Shown here: positions 9,019 to 64,000 of the stretch, piece by piece | Numbering within the stretch: position 1 is the first letter of the stretch | Layout: every line of letters begins with the position of its first letter | Assembly: GCA_009602735.1 (NCBI GenBank) | Contig: WELA01001243.1 | Location: 1-64,000 of the forward strand | Direction of reading: 5' to 3' | From: Mesotaenium endlicherianum | Taxonomy: Eukaryota | DNA length: 64,000 bases | The notes under the pieces: model-generated | The model's input: the letters and a program-made list of their open reading frames with translations, nothing else | Told to the model about the DNA's origin: nothing | The model's database searches: none | Position numbers and translations under genes: made by a program

Positions 9019-9019
9019 C

Positions 9020-33368: not shown

Positions 33369-33429
<61 letters not shown>

Positions 33430-33466
33430 CGCGCGCGCGTGTCTGTGCACGTGTGCGCACGAGCAA

Positions 33467-33498
<32 letters not shown>

Positions 33499-43177: not shown

Positions 43178-43934
43178 AACATGTGCATATGTGGTGGGGA
43201 ACAAGCATGTGCCAATTTGCGCTTTTGTGTTGCTTGCATGGGTGCACGCGTGCATGCAAGCATTTACACATGGTATATCCATAATAAGGTGTCAAGGACG
43301 TGTAAAAGCATAGAAAGATAATGAAAGTGTACGCTCAACCACATGCTTGGGTCTGTGGATGCATGCGTGTATGCGAACAAGCATTTGTATTACGCATGCA
43401 TGTGCAATTTTAGCGTACGGCATGTGGACGCGTATAGTATGTATGAAAGGGCAAAGGCGGCCAAGAAATGATGTTTGCACGCGAATGCACAGCAATTACG
43501 CCAAGAAGCTGGTTTTGACTCGCGCAACGCATTTAAATCAACCTACATGAAGAAAGTAGCCAGTTTGCACGTATCGGTACCTTGTATTCATAACCACGCA
43601 TGCAGTATGATGCCCGCAAGCATGATGCACTCAAGCATGAATTAAGGCAAGGCAAGTATTATTTAAATTTTCTGCTAAGTCTTAGGATGAGCAGATGGTG
43701 AGAGCTGGGTGAAGGAGAACATTGCTCTGAGTGTTGGTCATGGTTGCATGGTGCAAGTTCAGGAGCCCGGGGATGGGTAAACCTTGGTAAGGATTGTCAC
43801 CGACACACGTGCAAAGGTCGATCGACCATGTTTGCCCACACGTGAGGAGGGCCACCGACACATCGACCAGGTCGAAGGCACACATGCTGGAAGGCTATGC
43901 ACGTGCCAAGGGACCGACACTGTTAGGCACGACA
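43178..43934 (+). repeat. Left terminal-repeat blocks of family B (block A 43178-43638, block B 43639-43934)
   Basis: Block B matches 63424-63718; block A (43178-43460) matches 63718-64000. Confidence 0.85.
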
Positions 43935-44441
43935 GCTGTCGCGGCTACTATCCGTTTGACGGTGCCGCACGCGCAGCGCAAGCTACGGCCACCCAGGTTC
44001 GGAAAGTCAACGTTGACTCACCGACCACTTGACTGATTACGTCGCAGTCAGCGGTTATGTCGGCGTCAAGACCACTGGCAAGGGGTCAATGTCAATGTGC
44101 CCCACACCCGGGGATGGGGGAGGTTTTGACAACATAGACAGCCGCGAGGCTAGAAGCTGGGGATCAGTGATGAGCCGCCCAGCAGGTACCAAGTCAGGTA
44201 CTATGTGACTGGCAGATTAAGCCAGGTCATGGCCGCAATGCCAAGATAGGTTACGGCCGCCCGGTTGGGAATCTTGAGCAAGTGGCATTTGCTTGTACAC
44301 GCCGCTCAGGAGTTCTTAGCCATGAGCCAATTAGGCGTGACTGCCAGCTGAGAAGCTAAGCAGCCACGCGCGGCAGTCACGAGGTGTGCATGCATGCCAA
44401 GTGACTACGAGTTTGAGTTGGGCATGGCTAGGCAGAAGCGA

Positions 44442-45160
44442 TGTAATGAATCAGTATATTGGTTGATATAATATTCATTTAAATATAACAGTTAAATAAG
44501 TTCAGCCTGCTGAACTCTAGTTAAGAATCAGTCTGCTGGACTTTATATTTAATATCAGTTTAATGACTCAGCCGAAAGCAGCAGGCTGAAGTCAGCTTAA
44601 GCCAGCTTGCTGACACATTCTTTGACAGCCAGCTGACTTCCGTACTCGGTAGCAGCGAACTGCCTCGATATGCATCTAAGTGTGGTATGCTAGATGAATG
44701 GCCACATGACATCCCTATGATGGATGGCGATTTGGGATGATGGGAGATGGCGGTGGATTTGGTTAACCGAGGTCCTACCAACGTGGTTAACTCTCGGGTA
44801 GGCGGTGCCATCGCACTGGCCGTTGAACAGTAAACTCATTCCATGTACATATGCTAGGCATTGCTCTCGAGTTCGGCATTTGGAAACGAGGCCAACTCTC
44901 TTGTACAGCTAACTGAGAGAGAACTGAATCCAAGGCGAGAAGCCATTGATACGCACTGTCTTCTAACCTTGCTTATGTATGAGTTTACCGATTGCATTAT
45001 TGATGCTAGTTTACTCGCATTTGATTTACGAGTATTGTTCACTGCTAGTGTGTTGTCCTTTGCCGTTTAATCAGTTAACGGAAATACCATAAAGATTACT
45101 TGCTGATATAAAGATCTTTATTAATTGTAAATCGTCTATTTGGTAAGTCGATTCATTTCA
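44442..45160 (+). mobile_element. Solo LTR of family A
   Basis: TGTAATGAA...TTCATTTCA flanked by the 5-bp TSD AGCGA (44437-44441, 45161-45165). Confidence 0.96.
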
Positions 45161-46035
45161 AGCGACATGCAGCTAAGCTTTGTGACTAAGCACGGCATTC
45201 TCGAAAGATGACGTTGCGTGGTGCCTGCGGAAGGCACGAATCTTGCCTGAGACATGTCATTCACTCTCACGCACTTTTGCCAAGAAGCAGAAGGAGCAGA
45301 AGGAGAAGAAGGAAGGAGAAGAAGGGCGCGAAGAAGAAGAAGGAGTTCCCAAGGTCATTGGAGAGCCGAGGCCCCACGCTTCTGCCGACGCTGAAGATTC
45401 TTCTCAGTGTATCATAGATAAGTCAGGATTGTAGGAGTTCCCAAGAGGGAATCTCACTGTTGAAAGCAGGAGAACTGCAGAATAGAATCTGCTAAAAGAT
45501 TAGCACAGATTCGGCCGAACGCCACAAGTGTGTGAAGTAGCCTTAAAATGGTGAGTTGTGTGTTAGTTTCCAAGTTCTCAAAAGTCGCATTCGCATCTCG
45601 AAGACAGAAGAGTAGTATTGGCAGATAAAGCCCTTGGTGAAGAACTGAGTGAGCCTAGCCTGGCAGTGAAGAGCTGTTAAGGCGCGGTGTTAAGTGAAGA
45701 GCTTGACCCAAGCCAGCATAGACGTGTAGTTTCAGAGCTTTGTAAGCTGTGACTGTGAAAGTTAAGCGAAAGCTTGAAGGGCAATTTTCTCTGAATCAGA
45801 CGTTGTATGTCAAGCTGCTTAGAGTGTGATTTCTGCAAACTACAATTTGCTCGCCTGTGAACCCAAAAACCTTTGGGCATAAAACTTATGTGGAAGTAAC
45901 AGACTTCCGTCCTACTCCTGAGAACTTAGGTTCTGTGGTTCAAGTGAATAGAAATTCAAAGCAAATTGGGGATTGAGGCTTGTGAGGGCTGCCGGTGCTC
46001 AACCTGGAAGGGGACTCGGAGAAATTTAACTGTAC

Positions 46036-48560
46036 ATGCAGTTGAGGAGTGGAAGACTCTACTACCCTGTGGAGCCTATGGAAGGTTCTGATTCAAGCCA
46101 GAGTCCACGAGGAAGTGAGACATTTCAGCGCACGGATAACCTGTGGAGTGAGCAACCGTCGGAAGACGAGTCTCGCCATACTGCCACGAACGGTGAGAAT
46201 ACGTATAATGCGCAAGCTTTTGTACCCAATTTGGGCAGAGAGCACGACGTGTGGGGTAAAGTCAGTGAGTCTTGGTCGCCATTCGAAATGACTGGTGTTG
46301 ATAAAGATGAAAATCCTAAGTTCAAGCTGTCTACAAAGTGTTTTAGTGGACGAACCGGTGGAAATAGTCTCACTTTCGAAAAGTTTGATGAGATCTATTG
46401 GGCTGATTTCTTTGAGAGAATCCAAAAGGATTCTTCTTACACTCAATCAGTTGCTTTTATCAGCTTGGTTCAGTATTTGGACAAGGATGCCTTGTTGCTT
46501 TTTCGCCAATTCCGGAAGGATGAGAACTTTACCCAGGAATGGGCGTTTGACGAGCAAAAGAAGGCAGGGGATTTAAAAATCCAGAAAGAGGCTGCGAAAG
46601 CCCGCCTGTCCGCTTTGTCATCAGGAAGAGCGATACCTGCGGCACCTGTTGAGAGTGTAGACTTAGCTGCACTAACACAAGAATTAACCGATGCCATGAG
46701 GCAACTCACCGAGGGTCAGCAGCGAGCGGCTACTCGAGATGATGAATCTGGATCTGTCGCAGAATTGCGTAAAGTGTGTGCAGAATTGTCTGAAAAGATT
46801 GCTAATGCTCAGGAACGAGTAACGTGCAGGGCTGCACCTTTACAGGCCAGCATGGTGATAGTGCCACCACGGAAGCAAGCCATGCGCAAGCGTTGGCTAG
46901 TTGCCGTAGGGATATGGAGGCTGGGGATGACCAGTTAGACTCTGAGCACTGTCTGCGTCGTTTCTTTAAGTTGCTTGAAGCAAAATTCCTAGAGGATCGC
47001 AGTCTTAAGGAGCATCGTTATGTGCATTTTATCCGTCAGAAGAACGAGACAGTGATGGAGGTCAAATCCAGATTGGTAGACCTTGCCAAGAAGGCAAGAA
47101 TCTATGAGCCTAGGATTGTGGCTGACAAATTCTTATTGTGCCTGGGTAAAGACACAGATCGGGAGGTCAGGCCGCACCTATCTGCGAAACGCGGAATCGA
47201 CTGGAACATCGACGAGGCTCCTGAAAAAGCACGCAATGTCGAGGAAGGTAAAGTCTGGTACAAGGAGGCGTCCACGACGCTTATGGCTCCTGAGAGAAGG
47301 GAGGAATCCTTTCAACCTAAGGCCAATAGCTCTAATTTTCAATTTAAAAGGAAGAGCGGATCTTTCAATAGGTTTGCTAAGCAAGCCAACACTGCTGAGA
47401 CAGCAGAGGGCTGTTGGAATTGCGGGAAATCGGGACATCAGAAGAGAGATTGTCCGTACCCGGATGCTAAGCAATTGTCTGCTAGCAAGGCGCAGGTATG
47501 CGCATATTGCAGCAAGAAGGGACATTCAGAAGATGAGCGTTGGTCTAAGAACCCAAATCTGAAGCCACCATGGGCTAATGTTGCCACGAAAGAGGCAGAT
47601 AAGGGTAAGAGAAAGGAGAAAGATAACTCTGGTAACCGAAAGGGTAACCAGAAGTATGATGCTATGAGTGCAGAGATTGCAGAGTTGAAAGCTCAAATTG
47701 CAAGACTAAATGTGCTTAATGTCTATTATGATGCAGATGTGGCCGAAAAGACCGTCTGCAAAGGCGAGAAGCTGACGCTTGAGAAGGCCGTGGCTGCAAC
47801 GGCTGCGGAGCGCGTAGATCATGACCGTCTGGTTCCAAGGAATGCTGGGAAGCTTCCTCAGACCTTTCAGATCACTCTCGATGAGAACGAGATTGCGCAG
47901 CTACGACAAGCCAAGCCTGGGCCACGCAAGACATTTAGTTTTTCGCTGGAGAAGCTGAAGGCTCTGGTGGAACACCGGATTCAGCACATTCCTTGCCTTT
48001 CACTCGTTGATCTGCATCTTACGTATCCTTTCACGGTTGAAGAAGCCGGACAGCAGCTGGACATAGCTGAGAAAGGCGCAAACAGCGCTTCGTTGCCTAC
48101 TAATTTCAACACTGTGAGAGTGCAGAACAAGGATAGAGTCTTGACGTTCAACGACTGGGCCGCTCCCAATATCCTATTGGACACTGGCGCACAGCCAATA
48201 ATCTTGGGAAAGCAAGCTGTGAAAGCTCTGGGATTGACGGCAAGGGACCTGAAAGAAAGTCCTTTTCAGTTGAGGACTGCATCTGGGCAGTTTTAAAAGT
48301 CTTGTGGAATTACCCGCAAGCCTGTGAAAATCACAGTAAACTTGGAGATACCTGAGGAGGCGTCCCTGCTCATAGAATGCACGGTGACAGAGGCAGAGAA
48401 CTATGATGTTCTCTTGGTGACAGAAGCTCTGATTCCCCTGGGTATGGTCATCGACCTGCGGAAGCAGAGTGTGACTTACCAGTCAACAGATCGGCAGCCG
48501 ACAGGAGAAATTCCTGTAAAAATGGTTTGCTCGGGAGAGGCGAACTACGGACTGCTAGAC
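46036..48560 (+). pseudogene. gag: Family B gag-protease region (one frameshift near 46.8-46.9 kb, in-frame stop at 48294-48296)
   Basis: MQLRSGR start; QKNETV; zinc knuckles CWNCGKSGHQKRDC and CAYCSKKGHSEDER; protease ILLDTGAQ..YDVLL. ORFs 46824 and 48324 share a frame across one TAA. Confidence 0.85.
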
Positions 48561-48827
48561 TGTTGTGTGAATGACCGGTATCAAGACCATTATGACCTCA
48601 TCATGCAACGCGAAGAGGAGGGCTACACCAGCGTCAACATGCCGACTCCCTTGGTTTGGCAACCTCGAATTATAGAGCAATTGGAAGCTGTGAGTAACAG
48701 GGACCGTGGCCCGCAAGAGCTGCTGCCAGTTCCTTATCCAGTTAAGACTGCTGCCAATTTGATGCCTGGAGTAGACCCGCTGCCGCAAGGCATTGTGAGG
48801 ATGGAAGATCCTTTTCGCAGGAGAGAA

Positions 48828-49790
48828 GTAGTAGTGCTGGAATTGTTTGCCGGACTTGGTTCTGGAACCATCGCACTGATTCAGCGAGGTATCCGGGTAT
48901 CCAAAGTGCTGTATGTGGACAATGATGAAAGTGCGTTCACAGCATTTAAGGAGGTCATGAGTCAGATGCGGCAAATGCATCATTTCAAGGCGCCGGTGCC
49001 TACTGACTCTAGTTTGGTGCGTCTTGCTGGAGGAAACATTCTCGATGTGAACTCTGAGGACCTGTATGGTTACAGGATTGACTGGATCTTTGCGGGATTC
49101 CCTTGTCAACCTTTCTCGCAAGCTGGGAACAGGAGGGGATTCAATGACCCGCGAGCACAACACTGGAGATGGATGGTGAAAATCATCAGCATGCTGCGGG
49201 AACGCCAGCATCTCTACCCACCAGTGTTTGTGATTGAGAATGTACATCCAAGTATGGATTACAACCAAATGAAGCCAGGAGATCCATGGCTGGTCTTTGA
49301 CTCCACCCTTGGACATCATGTATTGATCAACGATGCCAGGCACGGAGGACTCTCACACCGGGCCAGACTATCTGGACCAACGGGATGTCCATTGAAATCC
49401 TGAGGGAGATGGAGGAGATCACGCGGTGCTCACCAACAGCAGTATCTGTGGGAGAAGCACTGAAAGTGGACACCAAGCCAGTGATTAGGAGGGATTCCTA
49501 CACACAGTACGTCGTCAACGAGCCAGGCCGGCCAAGGGTGGTGCTGCCCACCTTCACGGCATACCCAAGATCACGCGCATTCATAAATGGAGGACCAAGA
49601 ATGGTTAAGAATGCGCACGACAGAGAAGCTCAGTGGAGAGAGCCGACAACTGAAGAGAAGGGAAGGTGCTTGGGGGTACCCAACTCCATTGCACAAGAAA
49701 TTGGTGCGATGGTGGGACAGGACGACGCTGGGAAGATATTCGGCAATATGATTGGGCATCACTCCATGACGTGGTTGGTGGAGACAATTA
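48828..49790 (+). pseudogene. C5 DNA cytosine methyltransferase domain (DNMT3/DRM-like motifs) within the family B polyprotein; 1-nt frameshift at ~49371
   Basis: Motif I VLELFAGLG; II YVDND; III GNILDV; IV FAGFPCQPFSQAG; V GFNDPR; VI FVIENV; VIII DARHGGLSHRARLxWTN; IX EPTTEEKGRCLGVP; X IFGN. Confidence 0.92.
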
Positions 49791-49839
49791 TAACTTGGCA
49801 GCAGATGACATTCTCTGACAAGCCTATGCCCAGGCCGAG

Positions 49840-50342
49840 TGTAGTGAAACAGATAGATAAAGTACTTAGTAAAACAGAATACTTTATCTATTCAAGACAA
49901 GGATCTTTGAACACAAGTGGTAGCTTCTTGAAAGAGAGATGGCTTCTTGAAAGTTAATATATTTCTGGATTTTGGCAAGTACAAGAGTGATTCTGGAATG
50001 TCTTTCTATGTTCTAGCTCTTGTTTATATACTTGCTACATAAGTAATTTCTAGGAAGGTGTATGTTGATGTGTTGGCACCCAACACATCCCAAAACTTGC
50101 CACCTCTTTCTAGAATAATGTACACATGTCCTTTTGACCTAAAAATGGCACATCTGACTTTTGCCACATGGAGTTCTTCTAGGTCTTTCCTCTAACTTCG
50201 AAAATGCCTTGGAAGGTACAAAGGACATGAACCAAGTTACTAGAATACCTATTCACACTTGACTCCACACAATACCACTCCAAATATATTTGAAAACATT
50301 AAAATATATGCATACTAATATATAATAACTCAAATCACTACA
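49840..50342. mobile_element. 503-bp solo LTR of a third family
   Basis: AT-rich block with terminal inverted repeats TGTAGTGA / TCACTACA and 5-bp TSD CCGAG (49835-49839, 50343-50347). Excision restores the host reading frame. Confidence 0.88.
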
Positions 50343-50347
50343 CCGAG

Positions 50348-52130
50348 ACCAGTTACGATTGGAGTCCATGTAGTGCCAATCTCCGATCGGAGAGCTATCA
50401 GGGAAGCGCATCAGCGACAAGAAGAATATGGTGTTGAAAGGGACGTAGCTGAGGCTGACCAAGGTGAAGCACTCAGAGAAACCAGAGTTGCGGAGCTGAC
50501 CAGGTGTCAAGACCTACTGGCGCGAATTGACAATCGGATGGCGGCTCTACACGACCCTCTGGAAAGAGAGCTGCGAAGGCAGCGAGAAGACGTAGCCATG
50601 GAAGACCAGGCAACTAGTGAAGCAAACCCTTTGGCGAGCGCTGCAGCAAGCAAATCACAGGAGGTCCCATTATCTGCAGAACGCGCCAGCCAAATATTTG
50701 TAAGGATGCCGAAATGGGAGGAAGAGACCACTTCTGAGTTACGGAACATGGCCCAAGACCAGGTCTTCGGAGGCTCATCCCCACACGCGGCAACGTCAAG
50801 GTATGAAGGACGCCAGTGCAATATTGGCAAATGGGCTGAAGAATGCAGTCAGAATTCAGGAAATTCTGGAGAGTCTGGAAAGACCATTTGCCTGAAGGTG
50901 ATCTTTGAAGAACGCAGGAAGGAGACGGTTGAGATTGCCCGCCACACCTGTTCTGATGAGCCCAGAGCTAGAGGCCAAAGGGCAACCACAAGACACAGTT
51001 GGCAGCACAGCTGAGTCAATCACCAGGCAAATCATGGAGCAGTTGCTGGAAGCAGACGCCCCTCGACTCAAGGAAGAGAAAGTGGCAAAAGCAGCTCGCG
51101 CTCTACTGTCAGCCATCATCAACATGGCGAGGCTCAACACAGGTTGGGATGAAGAATCGCCGCCTCTTATAACAGAGAAGCCGGAGGAGGGAGAGGATGC
51201 AAAGATGCAAGGCCTCTCAGAGTTTGAGTTGCCATCACTCAATAATGGAGGGGACTTTAGGGAAGAAATTCCACGTTTTCCCACGCCAGCGTTGGATCTG
51301 CTTGACTTGCAGGAGCTGAGGACAGACGACTGGGTAGCTGACCACCTGATGGGGCCAAGCCCGGCAGACCCTTATGAAGAACTAAGGTCACCAACATCCA
51401 GTACCCCTACTGCCAGTCTTTCAGTGGCAGAGCCCAAGTCAATCGCACGACCGCCGAATCGGCAGGAGGTGACTGCCTGCAGTGCTAAAGTGGAGACGGC
51501 GCAAGGTAAGCCCAAGGGTCGCGCAAGCAGACCAAGGAAGGTGGCCCGTGAGGGTAACGCATCTTTTAGGAGGATGCTAAAGCGACATTTCAAGCATAAG
51601 GGGAAGGCTCAGAGAGAGGGCCTTCCGCGAGGAACCACAGCCCCACCTCCTCCGCCTCTGCGGGATATTTTGCAGAGAGAGGGAGAGGACGGCTTGATTC
51701 GCAGGGCAATGGCATTGGGCATTAGTGTGCCGCCAGGCATTAACATGCCCTTGTTGCAACTATCAAATCTTAGGATGCAAAGGCTGGAGGCACCTGCTCC
51801 CATGATACATGCAATTCCAGAATGGAAACTGGTGGATCTGGGAAACACCATCAGCCGCTTGACCGCAGCAGATGATGCTTTCCTCGCACAACTAGCGGCA
51901 CCTCAAAGGCCGCAAACGTTGGCACAGGCATGGATGGTCACACCACCCGCGAGGGAGGAGTATAGTACGACCGTCGCCCGCATGGCTATTATTGAGCAAA
52001 AGTGGGGCTGGGTAATCAGCCCTAGGACAGATCATGCAGGTTGGCCAGTGGCAAACCAGCCACGGCCACGTGACGAAGAAGGAACCGGGACCAATTGGAC
52101 GGCAGTCGACGAGGAAATGTTCTTGAGGCA
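50348..52130 (+). pseudogene. Unknown ~590-aa segment of the family B polyprotein between MTase and RT (one frameshift near 50.9-51.0 kb)
   Basis: In frame with the MTase C-terminus once the solo LTR is removed; ORFs 50373-51014 and 50905-52155; no motif recognised. Confidence 0.6.
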
Positions 52131-52910
52131 ACCCAGTCTGACTTGGGCCGCATAAGCTCAGTCAGACAGAGTGGGAGTGTGTGGAGAAAACTTGCGAAGA
52201 GCTGCATAAGCTCCGCACGATTGAAAAATCTACCTCAGTGAAAACAGAAGATCGAGGTAAGACAGCCTTCTGGGCTCAAAGGGAACATTGGCAATGAACA
52301 GTAATGCCATTTGGGCTGAAAAATGCCCCAGCCATATTTTAGAGGACTATGGATAAAGTGCTGGAGGGGCTGGATTTTGCTAAGCCATACATTGACGATG
52401 TGGTAGTATTCAGCAAGTCCATAGAGGAGCACCTCGAGCACTTGGAACAAGTGTTCCAGCGTTTGGAGAAATTCCACATGAAGCTGCATCCTGGGAAGTG
52501 CAGATTCTTTGAGGCACACGTGCCTTACCTAGGACATGAGATTGGGAATAATGCTATGTCCCCTCAGGCTGTGAAGACTGAGGCTATTTACAAGATACCT
52601 GCACCTGCAAATATGTCTAAGCTGAAAGCTCTGTTAGGCCTAAGCGGATACTATCGTAAGTTTGTAAAGGATTATAGCAGAATTGCTAAACCCCTGACGG
52701 AAGTCCTTAAAAAGGATGTGCTTTTTGTGTGGACAGAAGCTCAGGAGAAAGCCATGAACGAGCTTAAGGAGCGGCTGGTAACAGCCCTAGTCTTGCAAAC
52801 GTTTGACTACTCCAAGCCGTTCAATCTGCACACCGACTGGAGTCGTGTGGGAATTGGCGCAGTACTCACTCAGGCCGCAAGCCCTAGAGAGGAGTATGTC
52901 ATTGCCTATG
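52130..52910 (+). pseudogene. pol: Family B reverse transcriptase / RNase H N-part, with stops and an internal deletion
   Basis: PHKLSQTE..IEKSTS|VKTEDRGKTAFW..MPFGLKNAP..YIDD..GLSGYYRKF..HTDWS..EYVIAY. Confidence 0.9.
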
Positions 52911-53622
52911 TGTAATGAATCAGTATATTAGTGGATATAATATTCATTTAAATATAATAGTTAATTAAGTTCAGCCTGCTAAACTTCAGTCAATAGTCAG
53001 TCTGCTGGACTTTACCTAATTATCAGTTTAATGACTCAGCCAGAAGCAGCAGGCTGAAGTCCATATAAGTCAGCTTGCTGACCCATTCTTTGACAGCCAG
53101 CTGACTTCCGTACTCGGTAGCAGCAAACTGCCTTGACATACACCTAAGCACGATATGCTAGATGAATGGCCAGATGACATCCCTATGATGGATGGCGATT
53201 CGGGATGATGGGAGATGGCGGTGGATTTGGTTAACCGAGGTCCTACCAACGTGGTTAACTCCCGGGTAGGCAGTGCCATCGCACTGACCGTTGAACAGTA
53301 AACTCATTCCATGTACATATGCTAGGCATTGCTCTCGAGTTCGGCATTCGGAAACGAGGCCAACTCTCTTGTACAGCTTACTGAGAGAGATCTGAATCCA
53401 AGGCGAGAAGCCATTGATACGCACTGTCTTCTAACATTGCTTATGTATGAGTTTACTGATTTGCATCATTGATGCTAGTTTACTCTCATTTGACTTACGA
53501 GTATTATTCCCTGCTAGTGTATTGTCCTTTGCCGTTTAACCAGTTATACCATAAAGATTACTTGCTGATATAAAGATATTTTTTAATTGTTAATCGCCTA
53601 TTTGGTAAGTCGATTCATTTCA
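52911..53622 (+). repeat. Family A 5' LTR
   Basis: TGTAATGAA...TTCATTTCA followed by the PBS. Confidence 0.95.
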
Positions 53623-53656
53623 GTGGTATCGAAGCAGTTTTCACAGTCTTCTTTGC

Positions 53657-55135
53657 ATGGTAAGAACAAGGTCTCAAACTAGCAACTCCCGAGACATGGA
53701 GAACCAGGATAACGAGAATGTCAAAAACCAGGCGGAAAGCCATGTAGCGGGAACCCGTACCTATTCTGAAGCAGTAGCCGATACTGCAGCTAGGGAGGCT
53801 GCAGATGAGGCAGCGGCTATTACCGCAGTCGCAGCTCAGCAAGCTGAGGAGGAGATAGCCAGACTAGAAGCTGAACAAGTAGCAAAGGCCGCTGAATATA
53901 TACAAAGGAGGGAAGGACAGCCAGCTGACGAGCGCACTGTTGAAGAACTTATGGCATCAAGGGCCAATGTTCTGAACCCACCTCCTGCCGTACAACTCAA
54001 TGTACCCCTAGGTCAAATACGTGACCGGCTGAATGCGGCAGGAATTGCTGCTGCAGGAGCAAGAGGGATTGTTGAGGACACTACTCAGCGAGTAGATGCC
54101 AATGCTGCTGCTGCATTTGCTAATCTACCACCCCAAAATGTAGACTTGGGAGCATTGTTCGTTCAGATGCAGTCGCAAATGGCGACCATGTATCAGTCCC
54201 AGCAGGAGGACAAAAGAATCATAATGTCCCTACTCCGGGACAGAGACCAACTGGGGTCTCACACCACTAGTGGTGGTGGCCGAGGGCCTAGTAAGCCCAA
54301 GCCGAAACCTCCCCAGGACTATGATCCTGAGGGAAACAGAAAATATTACCTGATCAAGTTTCTCGCGGATGTTGAGCAGTGGCTGGAGAACTACCCAGAA
54401 CTGCAAGATTACGAGAAGGTCAGGCACACCGGTGCGCTACTGAAAGGCAGTGCCGCAGACTGGTGGCTTTACTGGAGGGAAGAGCGTAAGGCTCGGGAAC
54501 TCGGTGACCCTACGTGGGTAGAGTTTGTCGAGAAGTTGCATGAGAAGTTTGATGTCATCAACCAGCAGGAGAAAGCTATCTATGCGATGATCTCCCTGAC
54601 ACTGAAGCAGACCACTTCAGTTGCTGAGTTTGCTCAAAAGTTCCAAGAGAACATGATGAAGCAGCCTGATTTGCCAGAACGGTATAGGATAGCATACTTC
54701 AGGTATGGCTTGAAATCCGAGGTCTCTGGTCATTTTGCTGAGAAAAAGTATGAGAAACTGGCTGACTTGATCCAGGATGCTGACGCCTGGGATCAGCAGC
54801 AGTTCAATCACAAGCGCCAGAGTAACGCTTTGGTGTCTAAGATTGTCAAAAAGCCCCACGGTTCCTACAATGCAGTTGAAGGAGACCAGGCTGAGGATAA
54901 TCAGGGTGATGAATATGAGTATGAGTACAATGCTATTCAGTCTAGAGGTAGAGGTGGTCCCTCTCGAGGTGGCTATGGAAGGGGTGGTGGTAGGACTAAG
55001 CCGAGACCAGCCTCAGCAAAATCTACTTGCTACCATTGTCAGCAGAAAGGCCACTACAGAGAACAGTGTCCGGTCAAGCACCTGCCTAAGGTCGAGAGAA
55101 AAGACCAGCCTTTAAAAGACAGCAACAGTCAGTAA
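53657..55135 (+). CDS. gag: Gag (intact, 492 aa)
   Basis: Near-identical to 7507-8985; CCHC knuckle. Confidence 0.93.
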
Positions 55136-58100
55136 TCCAGTCTACTGACTGTGAGGATGCTAGAGATAGTGAGTCGTCACTAGCTGCCCTCGTAGCAGGT
55201 ATTATGGGTCCTGCTGAACTGGATTCACTATGCATGCCTGACAAACAGATAAAGGAGACCATCAGTAATATAGACGTCCAGAGAGTGCACACTCTGGATG
55301 CTCTTGTTCCACCTGATGTCCAACATTTCTTTGCTACGTCAGGAGAACAATGCGAAAGTCAGGAAAAGACAGTCCCCCCTATCCTACTGCATTGCATGAT
55401 TGCAGGTAGGAAGGTGAGGGCATTTGTTGACGGAGGGGCGTCACATACTTTTATCCACAAGGACTTAGTTAAGCGGCTAAGGCTGCCTACTGTCACCCAA
55501 GGGAATAGAAAAATATTCCTTGGAGATGCCTCAAGTATCCCGGGAGGAGTTATAACCAAGCCTATTGAGGTCCAGTTAGGTTCTGGCATTGCAGTTCTAA
55601 CTGAAACGCTTACATTTGAGGTACTCAACACTGGCTTTTATGATCTCGTGCTAGGCAGGTCCTGGCTTAATAGACATCAAGCTGAAGTGTGTTGGAGCAG
55701 AGGTACAGTTAAAGTGAGAGGAGCCAGTGATGGGCAAACTGACTTGGCACCCACCAGTGCTCTTCCTCTTGTCCTGTGTGGATGGCAAATGAAGGAGAAG
55801 AAGAGGCTTCCAGAAGGATGCAAGTTGCTGACTGCAATGGAGTTCGTCAAAAGCTGGAACCAGAAGGAAGACAGAATGTTCTGTCTGCTGCTAAGAGAGG
55901 TACCTCCACAACCTGGAGAAGTGGTTGAGAAAAAGGTACACCCTCCGGAGCACCCTACTGCTGCAAACATTGTTGCTCAGTACACGGATGTGTTTAATAT
56001 GCCTCCAGGACTACCCCCTAAGCGGGAAGTAGATCATAGGATTGATCTATTACCTGGTAGCCAGCCACCCTGGCAACGCACGTATGGCTTGTCTTATTTG
56101 GAGAGTGAGGAGTTGAAAACACAGATTGCAGAGCTGGAGGAAAATGGTTACATTTCTCCCAGTAAATCACCGTACGGCGCACCTATCCTATTTGTTAAGA
56201 AAAAGGATGGCAGTATGCGGATGTGTGTGGATTACAGAGCCCTGAACAGAATTACAGTAAAGAACAAGTATGCTTTACCCAGAATCGAGGACTTGCTTGA
56301 CACCCTGTCTGGCGCTTAAGTGTTCAGTAAGATAGATCTCAAGAGTGGTTATCATCAAATCAGAATTGCTGAGGGGGATGAAAACAAGACTGCTTTCCGC
56401 ACACGTTATGGACACTATGAGTTCATGCCATTTGGACTGACTAATGCTCCTGCTACCTTCATGGGTGCTATGAATGACATTTTTAGACCTTATTTGGATA
56501 AGTTTGTGCAAGTTTTCCTGGATAATATTTTAATTTTCTCTAAAGATGAAGCTCAGCACACTGAACACTTAAAAACAGTCCTGGACACTCTGCGTAAAAA
56601 TCACTTATATACTAAAATGAGCAAGTGTGATTACTTTAAGGAAAGTATTGAATTCTTAGGCCACGTTGTCAGTAAGGAGGGCATCAGTGTGGATCCTAAG
56701 AAAGTCCAGATCATAAGGGACTGGCCAGTACCACAGTCTGTCTCTGAAGTTAGATCCTTCCTCGGGTTGGCTAACTACTATAGGAGATTTATTGAGAATT
56801 ATTCCACAAAGGCCAGTAAACTGACTGACCTTACTAAGAAAGACATCGGGTATGTGTGGGGGGAAGAGCAGCAGGCTGCCTTCCAGACCCTTAAAGATGC
56901 CCTTTGTTCTGCCCCAGTGCTAGCCGTGTATGACTCCAGCAAACCGGTGCAGGTGGTTACTGATGCCTCTGACTTTGCCATGGGTGCTATTTTGTTGCAG
57001 CCTGCTGACAAAACCACAAAGGATGGTAAGGTACGGCAGGAGTGGCATCCTGTGNNNNNNNNNNNNCTGTATGAGTCTATGAAATTTAANCTAGCGGAGA
57101 TTAATACTCAGTGCATGATAAAGAGCTGCTAGCTATCATTCATGTACTCAAACAGTGGAGAGCATACTTACATGGTAAAGCTTTTAAGGTGATTACAGAT
57201 CATCTAGCTCTGACCCACTTTCAGAAGAAGTCCAAGCTGTCGAGGAGGGAGAACCGCTGGAGCCAGATGCTGGAGCAGTTCCAAGTCCAGATCGACTACA
57301 AACCAGGGAAGTTGAATCCTGCTGATGCACTCTCTAGAAGACCTGACTTGCAAGAAAGGAACTTTAGTCAGCATGCTGTAGATAAAGTCCTGTGTGCACT
57401 CACTTCACTAAAGGTGAAAAAGTCCTTCCTTGAACAACTTAGGAAAGCCTACCTTTCTGACCCAACATTTGAGCCCAGCCCCACTACTGGTGTGTGTCGT
57501 GCTACTGCACTCGGGTATAAGCTTAAGGGAGGGGTCTGGGTGACTGAAACCACTTCAGGCAGGCTGAAGCTGGTCATTCCTAATAACTTGGAAATAAGGT
57601 CTCTCTTACTGAGTCAAGCTCATGCCAGTCTCCTGGGTGGACATTTGGGGCAGGCCAAAACTGTTGGCAAACTGGCAAAACATTATCATTGGGAGGGGTT
57701 ACCCCGGGAGGTCTTGAAATATGTCAAGTCCTGTGACCAGTGTCAGAGAAATAAGTCTCGGCACACACCACCTGGAGGTCTCTTGCAACCGCTGCCCATC
57801 CCAGCTGGACGCTGGGAAACTATATCCATGGACTGGGTGGTCTCACCACCAAGAACTGCCAACGGGCATGATTCCAAACTGGTAGTCATGGATAAACTGA
57901 CAAAAATGGTCATTTTTATCCCCACAACTGTCAAAGTGACTGCACTCGAAACAGCGAGACAGTTTTACAACCATGTAGTATGCCAACATGGGCTCCCTTC
58001 TAATATCATCTCAGACAGAGACTCAAAATTCACCTCTAAGTTCTGGAGAGCTTTAATGGGGTTAATGGGAGTCAAACAGCTGCTCAGCACAGCAAACCAC

Positions 58101-58925
58101 CCTCAGACTGATGGGCAGACTGAAAGAACTAACCGAGTTCTGCAAGAGGTGCTGAGAGCATATATTAACCAAAAACAAGATAATTGGGATGACCTGTTGC
58201 CTCAAATTCAGTTTGCGGTCAACAGTGCGGTGCACGCGTCAACGGGCAAAACTCCTTTTGAACTCAGCCTGGGTAGAGTCCCTAAGTCTCCTCTAGATGT
58301 GCTAGGGGAATCTTTAACTCACCCTGAAGGGATTGACAACCCGGTCTCCCTCCAGTTAACTCAGGAGTTTGCCGACACCATGTCAGAAGTCCAACGCAAC
58401 TTGCAAACGGCCCAACAAAACCAACAAAAATACGCTACTCAACACCGTCGGGAACTGACATTTTCCAAGGGGGATTTAGTCAAACTGCATTCTCAGCACC
58501 TGTACCTCCCTGGTGTGGTCAAGAAAAAGCTTGGCCCTGTCTGGGTCGGTCCGTATTCGGTGGTCCGTCGTGTCGGTCAGAATGCTTACAAACTGAACAT
58601 GTCAGCTGAATACAAGGGGCACCCGGTCTTTAATGTCTCCTTCCTGGAACCGTACATCAAAGGTGATACACTGTTCACAGGTCGGTTCCCTGTCCAACCG
58701 GGACCTGTCCCCGCTGTCCGGGACGGCGACCCTGAGGAATATGAGGTCGATGAGATTTTAGACGCTCGCTCGGTCCGTCGATCGTCTAAATATGTCATGA
58801 AATACCTCATTCGATGGAAGGGTTACGATGCCTCTGGGGACACTTGGGAGTTTAAGGACCACTTGACCAATGCCAAAGGGGCGTTGACACGGTTCCACCT
58901 TCGGGCCGCTGGAGTCCCTCCATAA
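55090..58925 (+). pseudogene. pol: Pol of the nested family A copy, disrupted
   Basis: Stop at 56317-56319, FLDD changed to FLDN, 6-nt deletion in RT, and a frameshift near 57105 (next to Ns, so possibly an assembly error). Chromodomain intact. Confidence 0.88.
55111..55152 (+). promoter_or_regulatory. -1 frameshift signal (second copy)
   Basis: TTTAAAA at 55111-55117; stem 55125-55134 / 55143-55152. Confidence 0.8.
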
Positions 58926-59409
58926 CTGTCATTTCAGTTGACACGGGAAGGTGACAGGCGGTCCTGTCTCCATTTAAGTTGGAGGGGAAAATATATGACA
59001 GTTAGTGAGCGAGAGCGATAAAAGAACAGTTACGTGAACCCTAAGTGTCAGCATAGTGACAGAGGGGACAGCCTGGCCCACATAAAGCACCTTGAGCTGA
59101 AGGAAAAAGGGCCTCGCATAACACTACATCACTTAACTCACCCTAAAACACACTCATACGTTTATGTGTAGCGCATCCCAACTACGTCAACTTTTAGCAA
59201 TCATCCTGGAAGGTAAACAGCAGCGAAGCCACTATACTAATACTAACATACTTCCTGCAATCCCTATGACAAAGTTCCGTATCCTACTAACTTGTGCCCT
59301 GGTTACATGTGCAGGATGGCGCCCACCACACAAAAGGTAACATACTTCCTGCAATCCCTATGACAAAGTTCCATATCCTACTAACTTGTGCCCTGGTTAC
59401 ATGTGCTGG

Positions 59410-61086
59410 ATGGCGCCCACCACACAAAAGGAGGACAGAAAGCGCAAGGCAGAAGAAGCCAGGAGGACTATGGAACAATACCAGAAGGAGCTGGCGGCGA
59501 CGTCCCTCACCAGGAGAGAACAAGAAAGGGTCCGCAAACAACAAGAGGCGGCAGAAGAGGCACAGAGGAAGAAGGATCAGGAAGCGAAAAACCTCAGGAA
59601 AGTTGAGGAGGAGAGACAGAAGAAACAGCAAGAAGAAGCGGCAGCGGCAGAAGAGGAGAAAAGGAAAAAGCTTGAAGCGGACAGACAGAAGAGCTTGGCC
59701 ACTTACAGGTATACTGTGGTGGGTGGCCAGAACTTTGATAACCTGAAGGAAGCATTGCTGGCAGCCCAGGAGATCAACAGGCTGGAACAGACAACACTGC
59801 TACAGAAGGAAGGAGCTACAGCACTGGACAGGTACATCGAGACACACACCGGCGTGGTCCTTTACGAAGATTATGCTAAGATGGTGGGCTATACAGCAGA
59901 GCAGGCCCGGTATCTCGCAGATGATTCAGAGGACAAGCCGGTCCCCATACCGGGAATAGTGGGAGATCAGAGACTCATCCGGATGGTGAGCATGCGGCCC
60001 GATAGCTTTAAGGATACGGTATTCTACCTCACACTCCTGCCAGCTTACAATGAAGTTGAGAGAAGGAGCTGGGAGTACTTGGCCAGGGAAGCAGGACAGC
60101 AGATGTTCTCTCCCCACTGGTTCCCGTGTAAACTGAGGAAGGCTGAGCACGGACCCCAGTACTACCAGCAGCCAACAGACTGGAGGTGGATGACCGTCAC
60201 AAATAAGAAGCAGGAGTGTGACCGAGCCCAACCGGATGACTTCCACTATGGCCTAGACGGCTATCTCATCCTACCACCTCACATTGCCCCTTGGGACCCC
60301 AGGCTGAATGGATGCCTGAGCAATATGAATGCAGAGACCAAGGAACATAGGAGGAGGGGAAGAGAGTACTTCTCTAAGGGAAAGCATGCCTTTGTCAAAT
60401 GGGCAAAGAATGCAGGCCGGATAGATATCAGTAGGCTGAAGGCCAAGCAACCTCCAGCGCGCCCTAAGAAAGGGAGGTCGGTAGACTACTCCATGTCTAC
60501 TAGGGAGCAGGACGACTTAGTGGACGAGACCCCTACTCTCTCCGAGGAGGAGGATGAGGAGGATGAGGAAGAAGAACAAGGCAGAGGAGAAGCATCAGCA
60601 GCAGGTACTCAGGATACCCAGGGACAGGCAGTGGCACTTCCTAAAGAACCACGATCAGGTGTGTGGAATGTGATCCCCGTTATGGCGACAACTGGACCCC
60701 GCGCTCGCTCCCCCAGCCCACCTGCCCAAGCAGGGGAAGAAGCTGATCTGACTGTACTGGGCAGCAGACACAGACAGAAATCCCCAGAGGACAGGGGTGC
60801 CAGAAGAGGGACACGCGGGTGGGCCAGAGGTATGCCAGCCTCCCCCTCCGCTCAGGGGCATGTACCTCTAGCCAATGTATTTCAGCATCCTACTGGAATG
60901 CCTGTCTATGTGGGAATCAACACCCAAGTGGTTGAAGAGCAGGCCACCATCCACCGTTCTCCTCGAGGGCCAACTTTAGAGCAAACAGGGTCCTTTAGAA
61001 GGCCAGCTGACAGACCTAGAGGGCTGTCCAGATCTAGGTCCAGATCTCCGTCTCCTGACCCTGAAGCCCCAGGAACAACCCCTTAA
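59410..61086 (+). CDS. Extra ORF (ORF3) of family A, second copy, intact
   Basis: Same length as 1778-3478 with only a handful of amino-acid changes. Confidence 0.78.
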   Translation: MAPTTQKEDRKRKAEEARRTMEQYQKELAATSLTRREQERVRKQQEAAEEAQRKKDQEAKNLRKVEEERQKKQQEEAAAAEEEKRKKLEADRQKSLATYRYTVVGGQNFDNLKEALLAAQEINRLEQTTLLQKEGATALDRYIETHTGVVLYEDYAKMVGYTAEQARYLADDSEDKPVPIPGIVGDQRLIRMVSMRPDSFKDTVFYLTLLPAYNEVERRSWEYLAREAGQQMFSPHWFPCKLRKAEHGPQYYQQPTDWRWMTVTNKKQECDRAQPDDFHYGLDGYLILPPHIAPWDPRLNGCLSNMNAETKEHRRRGREYFSKGKHAFVKWAKNAGRIDISRLKAKQPPARPKKGRSVDYSMSTREQDDLVDETPTLSEEEDEEDEEEEQGRGEASAAGTQDTQGQAVALPKEPRSGVWNVIPVMATTGPRARSPSPPAQAGEEADLTVLGSRHRQKSPEDRGARRGTRGWARGMPASPSAQGHVPLANVFQHPTGMPVYVGINTQVVEEQATIHRSPRGPTLEQTGSFRRPADRPRGLSRSRSRSPSPDPEAPGTTP

Positions 61087-61199
61087 GGTGACACGCTGAA
61101 GAGGCAGTCAGTAAGGGAGGCTGGTCAGGTTCAGTTCCCTTATTTAAAATTTCTGCAGTTTAATGTTGTCGAGGCGACAACAAGTTAAGTTGGAGGGAT

Positions 61200-61919
61200 T
61201 GTAATGAATCAGTATATTAGTGGATATAATATTCATTTAAATATAATAGTTAATTACGTTCAGCCTGCTGAACTTCAGTCAATAGTCAATCTGCTGGACT
61301 TTACATAATTATCAGTTTATTGACTCAGCCGAAAGCAGCAGGCTGAAGTCCATATAAGTCAGCTTGCTGACCCATTCTTTGACAGCCAGCTGACTTCCAT
61401 AATCGGTAGCAGCAAACTGCCTTGACATACACCTAAGCACGATATGCTAGATTGAATGGCAAGATGACATCCCTATGATGGATGGCGATTCGGGATGATG
61501 GGAGATGGCGGTGGATTTGGTTAACCGAGGTCCTACCAACGTGGTTAACTCCCGGGTAGGCGGTGCCATCGCACTGACCGTTGAACAGTAAACTCATTCC
61601 ATGTACATATGCTAGGCATTGCTCTTGAGTTCGGCATTCGGAAACGAGGCCAACTCTCTTGTACAGCTTACTGAGAGAGATCTGAATCCAAGGCGAGAAG
61701 CCATTGATACGCACTGTCTTCTAACCTTGCTTATGTATGAGTTTACTGATTTGCATCATTGATGCTAGTTTACTCGCATTTGACTTACGAGTATTATTCC
61801 CTGCTAGTGTATTGTCCTTTGCCGTTTAACCAGTTAACGGAAATACCATAAAGATTACTTGCTGATATAAAGATCTTTATTACTTGTTAATTGCCTATTT
61901 GGTAAGTCGATTCATTTCA
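61200..61919 (+). repeat. Family A 3' LTR
   Basis: After the PPT; TG...CA; followed by TSD CTATG. Confidence 0.95.
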
Positions 61920-63368
61920 CTATGCCTCACGTTCTAACAATCGAGCGGAGAGCAACTACTCGTCCTACGAAGGAGAGCTGCTGGCAGTGGTTTGGGCTGT
62001 CACACACTTCAAGGAGTATCTGTGGGGAAGACCCTTCACGCTGATCACGGATCACTCACCATTACTATGGCTGATGAAAAATGGAGACCTCACTGGTAAG
62101 TTGGCTCGCTGGGCTCTTAAGCTGCAGGAGTACCAAATGACGGTGGTGCACAGAGCAGGAGTGCTCAACAACGACGCCAATGGACTCAGCAGGAACCCAG
62201 ACCCATCTTCAGACGACAGAACAGGAGCTCGAGAGGACGAAGACCCGAGCAGCCCAGCAGAGTTGGTGGCCTGCCTAGCCGAAATGGCTGGAATGGTAGC
62301 ATCAGGCGAAGCTGAGCCACGACCCCTGTTCACTCCAGAGATCTGGAAAGATCAAGCTACTATGCACTGGCTGAAGACGGTAACTCACTTGGAAGGGCTA
62401 TCAGTGAAGGAGAAGAACCAGGTTAGCCATCGAGCTAAAAGGTTCTGCTGGAAACGCAACAACCTCTTCAATATTAAAGAAACTGGTAAGGAGAAGTTAG
62501 TGCCAGAATCCATCAGGAGACGAGTTCTTGTGCAGGAAATGCACGAGAACACTGGACACTATGGTGTCAAGATGACGTATGGTCTTTTGGAGCTGTCTTA
62601 CTGGTGGAGGGGCATGAAGGAGCAGTATGAAGATGTGATCAAGGCCTGCCAAAGCTGTGATAGCGTCAAGGCTGGTTTTACGCAGCAACATCCACACTTG
62701 CAATATTTGCCAATCATGGGCCTAGACTACTGCTGGAGCTGCGATCTCGCAGATTTAGCAAGCAGGCTGCCTTGGCGAATTACTCGCCAAATCAAATAAT
62801 GTTTGGCAGAAGTCCAATAGTGCCCAGCAGTATCAAGCAAGAGATTGAACAGGTGAAAGACCTGGACAGCCCTGATGAACTGCTAAAGGTGATGGAACGC
62901 CGTAAGGCGTTATTTGAGCGCATAATGCCGGTTGCGCTGGACAATCTGAAAATCGTGCAGAAAAGAGATACGCATCGTCACACCAGGACGCGAGACGGGA
63001 GCTACCGCCTGTAGTTGACGCAGATTCAAGAAGGAGACTTCGTCTACCGCAAGCGCCAATGGTTCAACAATGGTGTGTTAAAGCAGGAAGGTTTTGATGG
63101 TAAAACCATGAGAGACCACGTGCAGAATTGCTCGCTATGCCATTTGCCGAATATTGATCCTACGCTTAGGGTTGTGCCCGAGAAATTGGTGCCAGCCACG
63201 CCTTGTGCCAGCTGCAAAGTGCTGAATGATCAAGAAGCAATAATAACTTGCGATAAGTGTGGTGCCCGTTGGCACACTTTCTGCATTGGCGAGGAAGAGA
63301 TTATGGCAGGACATTGGGAATGTCCTGACTACCTTTCTAAACCCCCTAGCCGCAGGGCTGGAAAATAA
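61920..63368 (+). pseudogene. pol: Family B RNase H C-part, integrase (catalytic core largely deleted) and C-terminal PHD finger
   Basis: ELLAVVWAVTHF..FTLITDH..LARWALKLQEY; HENTGHYG..YWWRGM..CQSC; WSCDLA|..YSPNQIMFGRSP; CASC..ITCDKCGARWHTFCI..WECPDY. Confidence 0.88.
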
Positions 63369-63415
63369 TAGCTTTTTGCAAAAAAGGCAGGGACGCCTCA
63401 GCTGAAAGGGAGGGG

Positions 63416-64000
63416 TGTAAGAGGAATTAAGGCAAGGCAAGTATTATTTAAATTTTCTGCTAAGTCTTAGAATGAGCAGATGGTGAGAGCTGGGTGAAGG
63501 AGAACATTGCTATGAGTGTTGGTCATGGTTGCATGGTGCAAGTTCAGGAGCCCAGGGATGGGTTAACCTTGGTAAGGCTTGTCATCGACACACGTGCAAA
63601 GGTCAATCGACCATGTTTGCCCACACGTGAGGAGGGCCACCGACACATCGACCAGGTCGAAGGCACACGTGCTGGAAGGCTACGCACGTGCTAAGGGACC
63701 GACACTTTAGGCACGACAACATGTGCATATGTGGTGGGGAACAAGCTTGTGCCAATTTGCGCTTTTGTGTTGCTTGCATGGGTGCACGCGTGCATGCAAG
63801 CATTTACACATGGTATATCCATAATAAGGTGTCAAGGACGTGTAAGAGCATAGAAAGATAATGAAAGTGTACGCTCAACCACATGCTTGGGTCTGTGGGT
63901 GCATGCGTGAATGCGAGCAAGCATTTGTGTTATGCATGCATGTGCAATTTTAGCGTGCGGCATGTGGGCGCGTATCGTATGTATGAAAGTGCAAAGGTGG
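63416..64000 (+). repeat. Start of the family B 3' LTR (block B then block A), truncated by the window
   Basis: TGTAAGAG directly after the PPT, then matches to 43639-43934 and 43178-43460. Confidence 0.82.

What the first reader, a model, noticed from the sequence alone, without database searches (positions are those of the whole stretch)
63204..63332. PHD finger at the integrase C-terminus of the same element: chromatin reader plus methylation writer
Seen: CASC-x11-CDKC-x4-H-x2-C..WECPDY, a C4HC3 PHD pattern with the last Cys read as Tyr (TAC), just before the PPT where chromoviruses carry a chromodomain. Established: PHD fingers read the H3 N-terminal tail (H3K4 state), host DNMT3 is guided by a PHD-like ADD domain, and PHD-bearing gypsy elements occur in green algae. 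Inference: family B combined histone-guided integration with DNA methylation in one polyprotein, a self-contained epigenetic module.
Basis: partly seen in the sequence, partly recalled or inferred. Interest (0 to 1): 0.7.

Follow-up and report, generated by a model that had tools for sequence, protein, structure and literature searches.

The report
Algal retrotransposon with histone reader, methylase
A broken copy of an algal jumping gene ends its integrase in a PHD finger, a domain predicted to grip unmodified histone tails, and also carries a DNA methyltransferase; intact relatives with both domains occur in several green algae, so these elements likely choose where to insert and likely mark DNA, though neither activity has been tested.

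Summary
The PHD finger at 63204-63332 is real (PF00628 E 6e-5; PHD fold; 0 of 100 shuffles). It ends the integrase of a decayed Ty3/gypsy copy that also holds a DNMT3-like cytosine methyltransferase between protease and RT. A nested chromovirus splits the RNase H, with a 5-bp target duplication. Other copies read Cys where this one has Tyr (45 contigs, 99% of depth). Of 36 RT-bearing relatives found with the window's own integrase tail, 31 carry a DNMT: 29 between RNase H and integrase, 2 before RT as here. Named hosts include chlorophytes, whereas the papers read place gypsy-DNMT3 in streptophytes only. The PHD resembles readers of the unmodified H3 tail and lacks the H3K4me3 cage. In this family PHD and DNMT lie over 1,300 residues apart and are likely cut into separate proteins, so an ADD-like coupled module is not supported. 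Targeting and methylation are untested. PHD-bearing retrotransposons, gypsy-DNMT3 and chromodomain-plus-methylase 'EpiLTRs' are published; the PHD-plus-DNMT3 clade was not found in 10 searches, and one key figure could not be seen. New variant of a known kind; interest 0.5.

The parts
43639..45913 (+). 5' terminal repeat region of element B; its first 296 nt match the 3' LTR; a solo LTR of family A sits inside it
   Evidence: 96.3% identity to 63424-63718; the right end is set only by a loose end at 45913 in one contig
44442..45160 (+). nested solo LTR of family A, AGCGA target duplication
46030..48167 (+). gag-like region with CCHC knuckle (47409-47456); frameshift near 46838 in this copy
   Evidence: PF00098 E 8e-6; other copies carry one more base there
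48168..48500 (+). aspartic protease, with an in-frame stop at 48294 in this copy; right boundary approximate
   Evidence: PF13975 E 6e-4
48825..49834 (+). DNMT3-like C5 cytosine methyltransferase; catalytic Cys, Glu and both Arg present; frameshift at about 49370 in this copy
   Evidence: PF00145 E 2.4e-18; profile with relatives hits DNMT3A/3B/3C first; motifs
49835..50342 (.). 508-bp very high-copy short insertion with a 5-nt duplication; absent from other copies, whose flanks join in frame
   Evidence: joint 49834-50343 in 3 DNA runs; depth about 50-fold the flanks; frame check
50343..52135 (+). about 600-codon spacer between DNMT and RT, no Pfam family
52136..52910 (+). reverse transcriptase (N-terminal part largely deleted here) and first half of RNase H
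   Evidence: PF00078 E 8e-12, PF17919 E 5e-17; loose ends at 52135 and 52238
52911..61919 (+). nested family-A chromovirus-type Ty3/gypsy element (two 720-nt LTRs, chromodomain), not part of element B
   Evidence: CTATG at 52906-52910 and 61920-61924; LTRs 96.4% identical; PF00385
61920..62752 (+). second half of RNase H, integrase H2C2 zinc finger (62515-62670), start of the core; about 376 nt of the core missing after 62752
   Evidence: PF17917 E 3e-25, PF17921 E 7e-14; records 8 and 16
62753..63203 (+). integrase C-terminal region with SH3-like strands and the family's C-H-L-P motif; stop at 63012 and about 54 nt missing near 63060 in this copy
   Evidence: SH3/Tudor-like fold for the matching part of a relative
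63204..63332 (+). PHD finger; seven of eight zinc ligands here, the eighth Cys in other copies; ORF ends at 63368
63404..63415 (+). polypurine tract
   Evidence: sequence, directly before the TG start of the LTR
63416..63718 (+). start of the 3' LTR, cut off at about 63718 by a different repeat
   Evidence: 27 contigs continue as in the 5' copy

Best explanation
The stretch is a PHD finger that ends the integrase of a broken Ty3/gypsy retrotransposon copy which also encodes a DNMT3-like cytosine methyltransferase before its reverse transcriptase; in intact copies the PHD is predicted to bind the unmodified N-terminus of histone H3 and so likely steers integrase away from H3K4-methylated active promoters, while the methyltransferase likely acts as a separate cleavage product on the element's own DNA. 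Shown: the domains, their order, their place in one element, the private decay of this copy, and one-ORF versions in many relatives. Inferred: one polyprotein in this family, protease cleavage, histone binding, targeting and methylation. The PHD would do the job that the chromodomain does in chromoviruses. The two domains travel together but are probably two functions, not one guided enzyme, at least in this family.
For: PHD: PF00628, fold matches, no chance hits. Other copies read G at 63331 (Cys codon) in 26,778 of 26,982 summed depth over 45 contigs of run X1 and in one contig of X7, and no stop at 63012 (13,240 of 13,313). Last ligand is Cys in 125 of 128 relatives with the pattern, among 150 hits. 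Fusion: rve, H2C2 and PHD in one protein in 21 of 21 long relatives scanned. Nearest solved PHDs are KDM5B PHD1, WSTF, MLL3, KDM5A PHD1, ATXR5, BAZ2B, BHC80. KDM5B residues needed for unmodified-H3 binding (PMC4225485, passages) are kept in relatives: D328 as Asp in 120 of 128, L325 as Leu/Ile/Val in 122 of 128, P347 in 126, G349 in 99, W351 in 128 (the last fixed by the search pattern). The cage Trp position two before His is Gly in 111 of 128 and Trp in none of the listed residues. DNMT: 31 of 36 RT-bearing relatives from the window-seeded search; all four catalytic residues in 97 of 113 DNMT domains; best PDB hits DNMT3A. Of the breaks in this copy, those at 46838, 49370, 49835, 50930, 52135, 62752, 63012 and 63058 are absent from contigs of other copies.
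Against: No binding, insertion-site or methylation data. This copy has Met at the P347 position; whether that is private was not visible in the listed rows. No contig spans the element, and the stop at 48294 was not among the rows shown (342 hidden), so one ORF in this family is inferred. The isolated KnitGypsy-Dnmt3 domain did not methylate yeast DNA (PMC5890265). 14 of 127 RT-bearing relatives lack a DNMT and 16 of 113 have a damaged one, including Tetrabaena, Pleodorina and Astrephomene proteins, so the PHD persists without it. Two poly(A) RNA runs with the same species label (6% and 12% read) gave no reads on the RNase H-integrase-PHD stretch (X22) or on the protease-DNMT and RT stretches (X23).
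Confidence: 0.6

Rival explanations
1. Coupled module: the PHD guides the DNMT, as ADD guides DNMT3, so that the element methylates chromatin at or around its insertion site.
For: Both domains are in one ORF in relatives. In the large clade the DNMT ends a median 132 residues before the integrase zinc finger (n=100), so a DNMT-integrase-PHD product is possible there. The DNMT is DNMT3-like.
Against: In this family the two lie over 1,300 residues apart, with RT and RNase H between them. The DNMT occupies two different places and is lost or damaged in several PHD-bearing lineages. Cleavage sites were not determined.
Confidence: 0.15
2. The PHD has no part in choosing insertion sites; it is a structural or protein-binding appendage, or acts after integration, for example on silencing machinery.
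For: No insertion data here. The K4-reading acid is poorly kept. PMC6673714 raises the same alternative for a retrotransposon MBD (passages).
Against: The H3 A1/R2 contact residues are strongly conserved across relatives about 30-40% identical to the query, and the position matches that of the targeting chromodomain.
Confidence: 0.18
3. The PHD reads H3K4me3 and aims the element at active promoters.
For: Met three before the third Cys (106 of 128) is also a cage residue in ING-type readers (alignment position recalled); K4me3 readers appear lower in the fold lists.
Against: The cage Trp is replaced by Gly in 111 of 128 relatives and Arg here; sequence neighbours are unmodified-tail readers.
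Confidence: 0.04
4. The PHD and the DNMT belong to different nested elements, or the PHD is a chance pattern.
For: The region is heavily nested, and 2.4 kb without Pfam hits lie between DNMT and RT.
Against: Target duplications delimit the three insertions; matching repeats bracket the whole; other copies join DNMT to the spacer in frame; three relatives have the same order in one ORF; 0 of 100 shuffles.
Confidence: 0.03

Closest known systems
KnitGypsy-Dnmt3 of Klebsormidium nitens (PMC5890265; abstract, passages, part 3 of 7 of the text and a supplement search seen)
   Same: Ty3/gypsy with a Dnmt3-related DNMT inside the Pol ORF, in a streptophyte alga; possibly the same clade.
   Different: Main text and the three supplementary files held as text contain 'PHD' 0 times, but its architecture figure (Fig. 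4c) could not be seen and may show one. No K. nitens protein came up, so kinship is untested. It is described with DIRS-like split repeats; here that is unresolved.
EpiLTRs of Cymbomonas and Euglena (bioRxiv 10.64898/2026.05.21.726589; passages and section 8 seen)
   Same: LTR retrotransposons that combine a histone reader with DNA methyltransferases.
   Different: Chromodomain rather than PHD; DNMT sister to DNMT4 rather than DNMT3-like; they also carry an adenine methylase, which this element lacks. The preprint assigns Gypsy-DNMT3 to streptophytes; its only 'PHD' is a fellowship.
REM1 and other PHD-bearing retrotransposons of Chlamydomonas (paper not held; seen only as cited in PMC6673714 and PMC8557442)
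   Same: Green-algal LTR element with a PHD finger proposed to influence integration.
   Different: Recalled, not checked: REM1 has PHD and chromodomain in a separate antisense ORF. Here the PHD is in frame with integrase, and no DNMT is mentioned in the citing passages.
Chromoviruses (for example MAGGY; the nested family-A element of this window)
   Same: A histone reader at the integrase C-terminus just before the PPT.
   Different: No chromodomain in element B; its RT-RNase H is far from the nested chromovirus (long branch).
KDM5 PHD1, BHC80, ATXR5, BAZ2 and UHRF1 PHD fingers
   Same: Best sequence and fold neighbours; H3 A1/R2 contact residues shared.
   Different: The K4-contacting acid is not conserved at the KDM5B position.

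Membership tests
PHD finger (PF00628) | C4-H-C3 zinc ligands with Trp two before the seventh | tested here: met
   Seven of eight in this copy; eighth is Cys in other copies and in 125 of 128 relatives
PHD finger (PF00628) | Pfam score above the curated cut-off | tested here: inconclusive
   23.3 bits against 24 for this damaged copy; 27-50 bits in 21 of 21 relatives
PHD finger (PF00628) | PHD fold | tested here: met
   Model ma059e154b546; nearly all top rows are PHD-containing chains, Z up to 6.5, rmsd 2.2 over 48 residues
Unmodified-H3-tail PHD readers (KDM5 PHD1 type) | Asp after third Cys and hydrophobic A1 pocket | tested here: met
   the pocket Pro is Met in this copy
Unmodified-H3-tail PHD readers (KDM5 PHD1 type) | Acidic residue contacting K4 (D308) | tested here: not met
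   Asp in 13 of 128 at that position; acid one position later in 69 of 128; none in this copy
Unmodified-H3-tail PHD readers (KDM5 PHD1 type) | Measured binding to H3 | not testable with these tools
   No histone sequence was available to the complex tool
H3K4me3-reading PHD (ING2/BPTF type) | Aromatic cage with conserved Trp two before His | tested here: not met
   Gly 111, Ala 13, Pro 3, Tyr 1 of 128; Arg here; cage described in PMC4225485 and PMC3214078 (passages), its position recalled
Ty3/gypsy LTR retrotransposon | gag-PR-RT-RH-IN order | tested here: met
Ty3/gypsy LTR retrotransposon | PPT, paired terminal repeats and target duplication | tested here: inconclusive
   PPT and 296 nt of paired repeat found; the 3' LTR is cut off, so no target duplication could be sought
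Chromovirus | Chromodomain at the integrase C-terminus | tested here: not met
   No PF00385 in 63015-63365; present in the nested element
KnitGypsy-Dnmt3 | Unpermuted Dnmt3-related DNMT within Pol | tested here: met
   no tree with host DNMT families was built
KnitGypsy-Dnmt3 | DIRS-like split direct repeats | tested here: inconclusive
   Contigs of two runs join the end of the 5' repeat directly to the LTR start; this fits split repeats or tandem LTRs
KnitGypsy-Dnmt3 | RT clusters with the K. nitens elements | not tested
   No K. nitens protein among the named hits
EpiLTR | DAM plus DNMT plus chromodomain | tested here: not met
   No chromodomain and no second methyltransferase-like tail in this element

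The most novel reading that the evidence does not exclude
An undescribed Ty3/gypsy clade spanning chlorophytes and streptophyte algae uses a PHD finger in place of the chromodomain and has carried an active DNMT3-like enzyme since before the two lineages split. In its largest branch the mature integrase is a DNMT-integrase-PHD-Tudor-methyltransferase protein that reads the unmodified H3 tail and methylates DNA at the moment of insertion: a mobile counterpart of DNMT3 with its ADD domain.
Probability: 0.15. Interest if true: 0.85.

Novelty: new variant of a known kind. Interest (0 to 1): 0.5.

Why it matters
What retrotransposon DNMTs do is open: the one gypsy enzyme tested gave no signal. This work points to about a hundred intact, catalytically complete DNMT3-like domains in PHD-bearing gypsy proteins, including culturable chlorophytes (Scenedesmus, Haematococcus). 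It also offers natural contrasts: DNMT before RT, DNMT next to integrase, and DNMT lost. That makes self-methylation and PHD-guided insertion directly testable, and it widens gypsy-DNMT3 beyond streptophytes. Pfam lists PF00145 for only 29 of 120 such proteins (counted by hand), which may be why the clade is easy to miss. This particular copy is dead.

Tried and rejected
No whole genome is held for the window, so intact copies and insertion sites could not be read. A word-based search with the PHD ORF for longer proteins found nothing; one with the DNMT ORF gave 3 proteins, one relevant (P0001, protease then DNMT). The metagenome scan with P0045 returned 21 loci, none close to P0045 itself (best segments 38-55%), so it did not show whether the window's nearest relatives (P0045, P0155, which begin at RT) have an upstream DNMT. 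The careful RT tree did not finish; the quick tree is quoted. The DNMT tree puts the before-RT domains on long branches and cannot order events. A regular expression missed some PHDs that Pfam lists, and my PHD profile includes upstream residues, so Pfam counts are preferred. The run search listed no indexed RNA holder. The Atlas gave no hit for the relatives' tail; Foldseek did not rank a methyltransferase for it. Three look-ups of earlier findings were empty. The REM1 paper is not held. No complex was predicted: no histone sequence was available. Rejected: chance pattern, chimera of two elements, H3K4me3 reader, chromovirus membership.

Full report
Observation. It is the only PHD-like pattern in the window and none arose in 100 shuffles. 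Pfam PF00628 gives E 6.4e-5 and 23.3 bits, against a cut-off of 24. An AlphaFold model built on 58 sequences (pLDDT 81) matches PHD fingers at the top of both structure searches, with modest scores typical of a 45-residue domain (Foldseek best E 0.017; VIA Z 6.5). A stop follows at 63366, then a purine tract and the TG start of an LTR at 63416.

The element. From left to right: a terminal repeat region from 43639, gag with a CCHC knuckle, protease, a C5 methyltransferase (PF00145 E 2.4e-18), a spacer, RT, RNase H, integrase and PHD. Three insertions break it. A solo LTR lies at 44442-45160 and a complete chromodomain-bearing element at 52911-61919, each with a 5-bp target duplication; RNase H reads on across the second. 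A 508-bp high-copy repeat lies at 49835-50342, and other copies join its flanks in frame. So DNMT and PHD belong to one element. The host is likely a zygnematophyte alga: the closest hit, 77% over about 56 residues, is labelled jgi/Mesen1, which I recall as Mesotaenium endlicherianum.

This copy is decayed; the family was not. Contigs from public DNA runs laid at 80% likeness show many other copies. At 63331 they read G, giving Cys, in 26,778 of 26,982 summed depth (45 contigs, run X1; also one contig in X7; X5 does not cover the site). At 63012 they have no stop. They hold about 376 nt of integrase core and about 54 nt of the C-terminal region that this copy lacks, and restore conserved Asp and Met in the PHD. 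Frameshifts at 46838, 49370 and 50930 are likewise absent elsewhere. Where most copies differ from this one, the window more often has A or T for their G or C (139 against 60 places in X1), as expected from decay of methylated cytosines (inference). No contig spans the element and many rows were hidden, so a single ORF of roughly 2,900 codons is inferred from 2,588 codons present plus the deletions. Poly(A) RNA reads from two runs with the same species label did not cover the enzyme-coding parts laid; they may be another strain.

Relatives. A full HMMER search with the integrase tail plus PHD gave 634 proteins at E up to 0.001; I examined the best 150. PHD presence is built into that query; DNMT presence is not. 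Of the 36 that include RT, 31 hit a DNMT profile (built from 31 of the 150, so partly circular): 29 between RNase H and integrase, 2 before RT as in the window. Four of the five without start within 330 residues of the RT match, too close to show an upstream DNMT. A second search seeded on one tether-type protein, and so biased to it, listed 120 of 139 hits, 119 with PF00628. Pooled, and dropping cluster members except P0155, 127 RT-bearing proteins split into 110 tether, 3 before RT and 14 none. All four catalytic residues are present in 97 of 113 DNMT domains and in the window. A six-row profile that includes the window's two halves hits DNMT3A, 3C and 3B first (E 6e-14), then DRM and HhaI; the window's N-terminal half alone hits bacterial enzymes first and weakly. 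Named hosts are Scenedesmus sp. PABB004, Haematococcus lacustris, Tetrabaena socialis, Pleodorina starrii, Volvox africanus, Astrephomene gubernaculifera and Chrzof1 (recalled as Chromochloris). The DNMT motif is damaged in the Tetrabaena, Pleodorina and Astrephomene proteins. Seven metagenome loci show the order RT-RH-DNMT-IN-PHD-tail unbroken in ORFs of 1,790-2,041 codons, among 21 loci. In a quick RT-RNase H tree of 121 rows (8 of the 127 dropped for short RT), the window falls outside a 112-row clade (support 99) holding all tether-type DNMTs in the tree, and groups with P0045 and P0155 (94), which also end right after the PHD.

What the PHD likely reads. Its nearest solved relatives are KDM5B and KDM5A PHD1, WSTF, MLL3, ATXR5, BAZ2B, BHC80, AIRE and UHRF1; several are solved with unmodified H3 (titles). 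Mapping the KDM5B contacts (PMC4225485, passages) on 128 relatives, the R2-binding Asp and the A1 pocket are kept, the K4me3 cage Trp is replaced by Gly, and the K4-binding Asp is poorly kept. I therefore predict binding to the unmodified H3 N-terminus, with uncertain sensitivity to K4 methylation. By analogy with chromodomain targeting (cited in PMC6673714, passages), this would bias insertion away from active promoters. That step is inference.

Is it one module? Not in this family. The DNMT ends 1,297 codons before the PHD in this copy, more in intact ones, and Ty3/gypsy Pol is cut by its own protease (established knowledge). The PHD stays with integrase; the DNMT is likely released or stays with a neighbour. 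In the tether clade the DNMT ends a median 132 residues before the integrase zinc finger, so a joined DNMT-integrase-PHD is possible there, but no cleavage site was tested. Loss or damage of the DNMT in several PHD-bearing lineages argues for independent functions. Self-methylation of the element's DNA is the proposal of PMC5890265, whose test of the gypsy enzyme was negative and called inconclusive.

Comparison with print. Gypsy with Dnmt3 in Pol is known from Klebsormidium (PMC5890265). PHD fingers are called common in algal transposons (PMC8557442, PMC6673714, passages) and PHD-transposon fusions were surveyed (10.1101/2021.11.30.470311, passages). A 2026 preprint describes chromodomain-plus-DAM-plus-DNMT elements and places Gypsy-DNMT3 in streptophytes (10.64898/2026.05.21.726589). 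Nine of my ten searches concerned these elements (one search was on PHD binding) and found no description of PHD plus DNMT3 in one gypsy Pol, nor of gypsy DNMT3 in chlorophytes. Two hits were seen as listings only or not at all in detail (PMC9998398 listing; PMC11244446 and PMC4738411 passages, nothing relevant). Limits: figures are not held, so Fig. 4c of the Klebsormidium paper may already show the PHD; bioRxiv supplements are closed; REM1, Repbase and subscription reviews were not seen.

Verdict. Observation confirmed; interpretation partly supported. Interest 0.5.

Noticed in passing
relatives such as P0103 residues 371-494, P0013, P0025; L002, L003, L005, L006, L011, L014, L015; absent from the window: 104 of 214 relatives continue 280 or more residues past the PHD: a Tudor-like stretch (PF21743 weak, E 0.007 in one) and a class I SAM-methyltransferase fold (VIA Z 8.4-8.6, rmsd 2.8-3.6 over 108-125 residues, with METTL5 and ErmC' among the tied rows). 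Some keep DPW-x-G and SP(P/W) motifs that recall amino-methyltransferases. A possible third epigenetic domain; substrate and activity unknown.
   Followed up: partly
P0037, P0153, P0025 (Pfam scans); P0197, P0271 (precomputed): A G-patch lies just before the integrase zinc finger in some relatives.
   Followed up: no
window 45884-45913 and 63416: Contigs of two runs join the end of the 5' repeat region directly to the TG start of the LTR, which fits DIRS-like split repeats as reported for KnitGypsy-Dnmt3, or tandem LTRs.
   Followed up: partly
window 43178-43638 and 63718-64000: A separate repeat (96% identical over 283 nt) abuts the 5' repeat and cuts off the 3' LTR; its nature was not determined.
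   Followed up: no
window 49835-50342: Very high-copy 508-bp insertion with a 5-nt duplication, well covered by poly(A) RNA reads; SINE- or MITE-like, not classified.
   Followed up: partly
window 59341-61086 (+) and 1778-3523 (-): The nested chromovirus carries an extra 581-codon ORF between pol and the 3' LTR, open in both copies, with no convincing Pfam hit.
   Followed up: no
window 941-9738 (-): A second family-A element, about 98% identical to the nested one, with a 1,276-codon pol ORF, and part of a third at the window start.
   Followed up: no
window 63141-63152: A C-H-L-P motif just upstream of the PHD is nearly invariant (Cys 128, His 116 of 128 relatives), often with a further His and Cys before it; possibly an extra zinc site.
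   Followed up: no
window 26686-30427 and 32711-36465: Two regions about 6 kb apart share several 72-79% identical blocks, like a tandem gene duplication.
   Followed up: no
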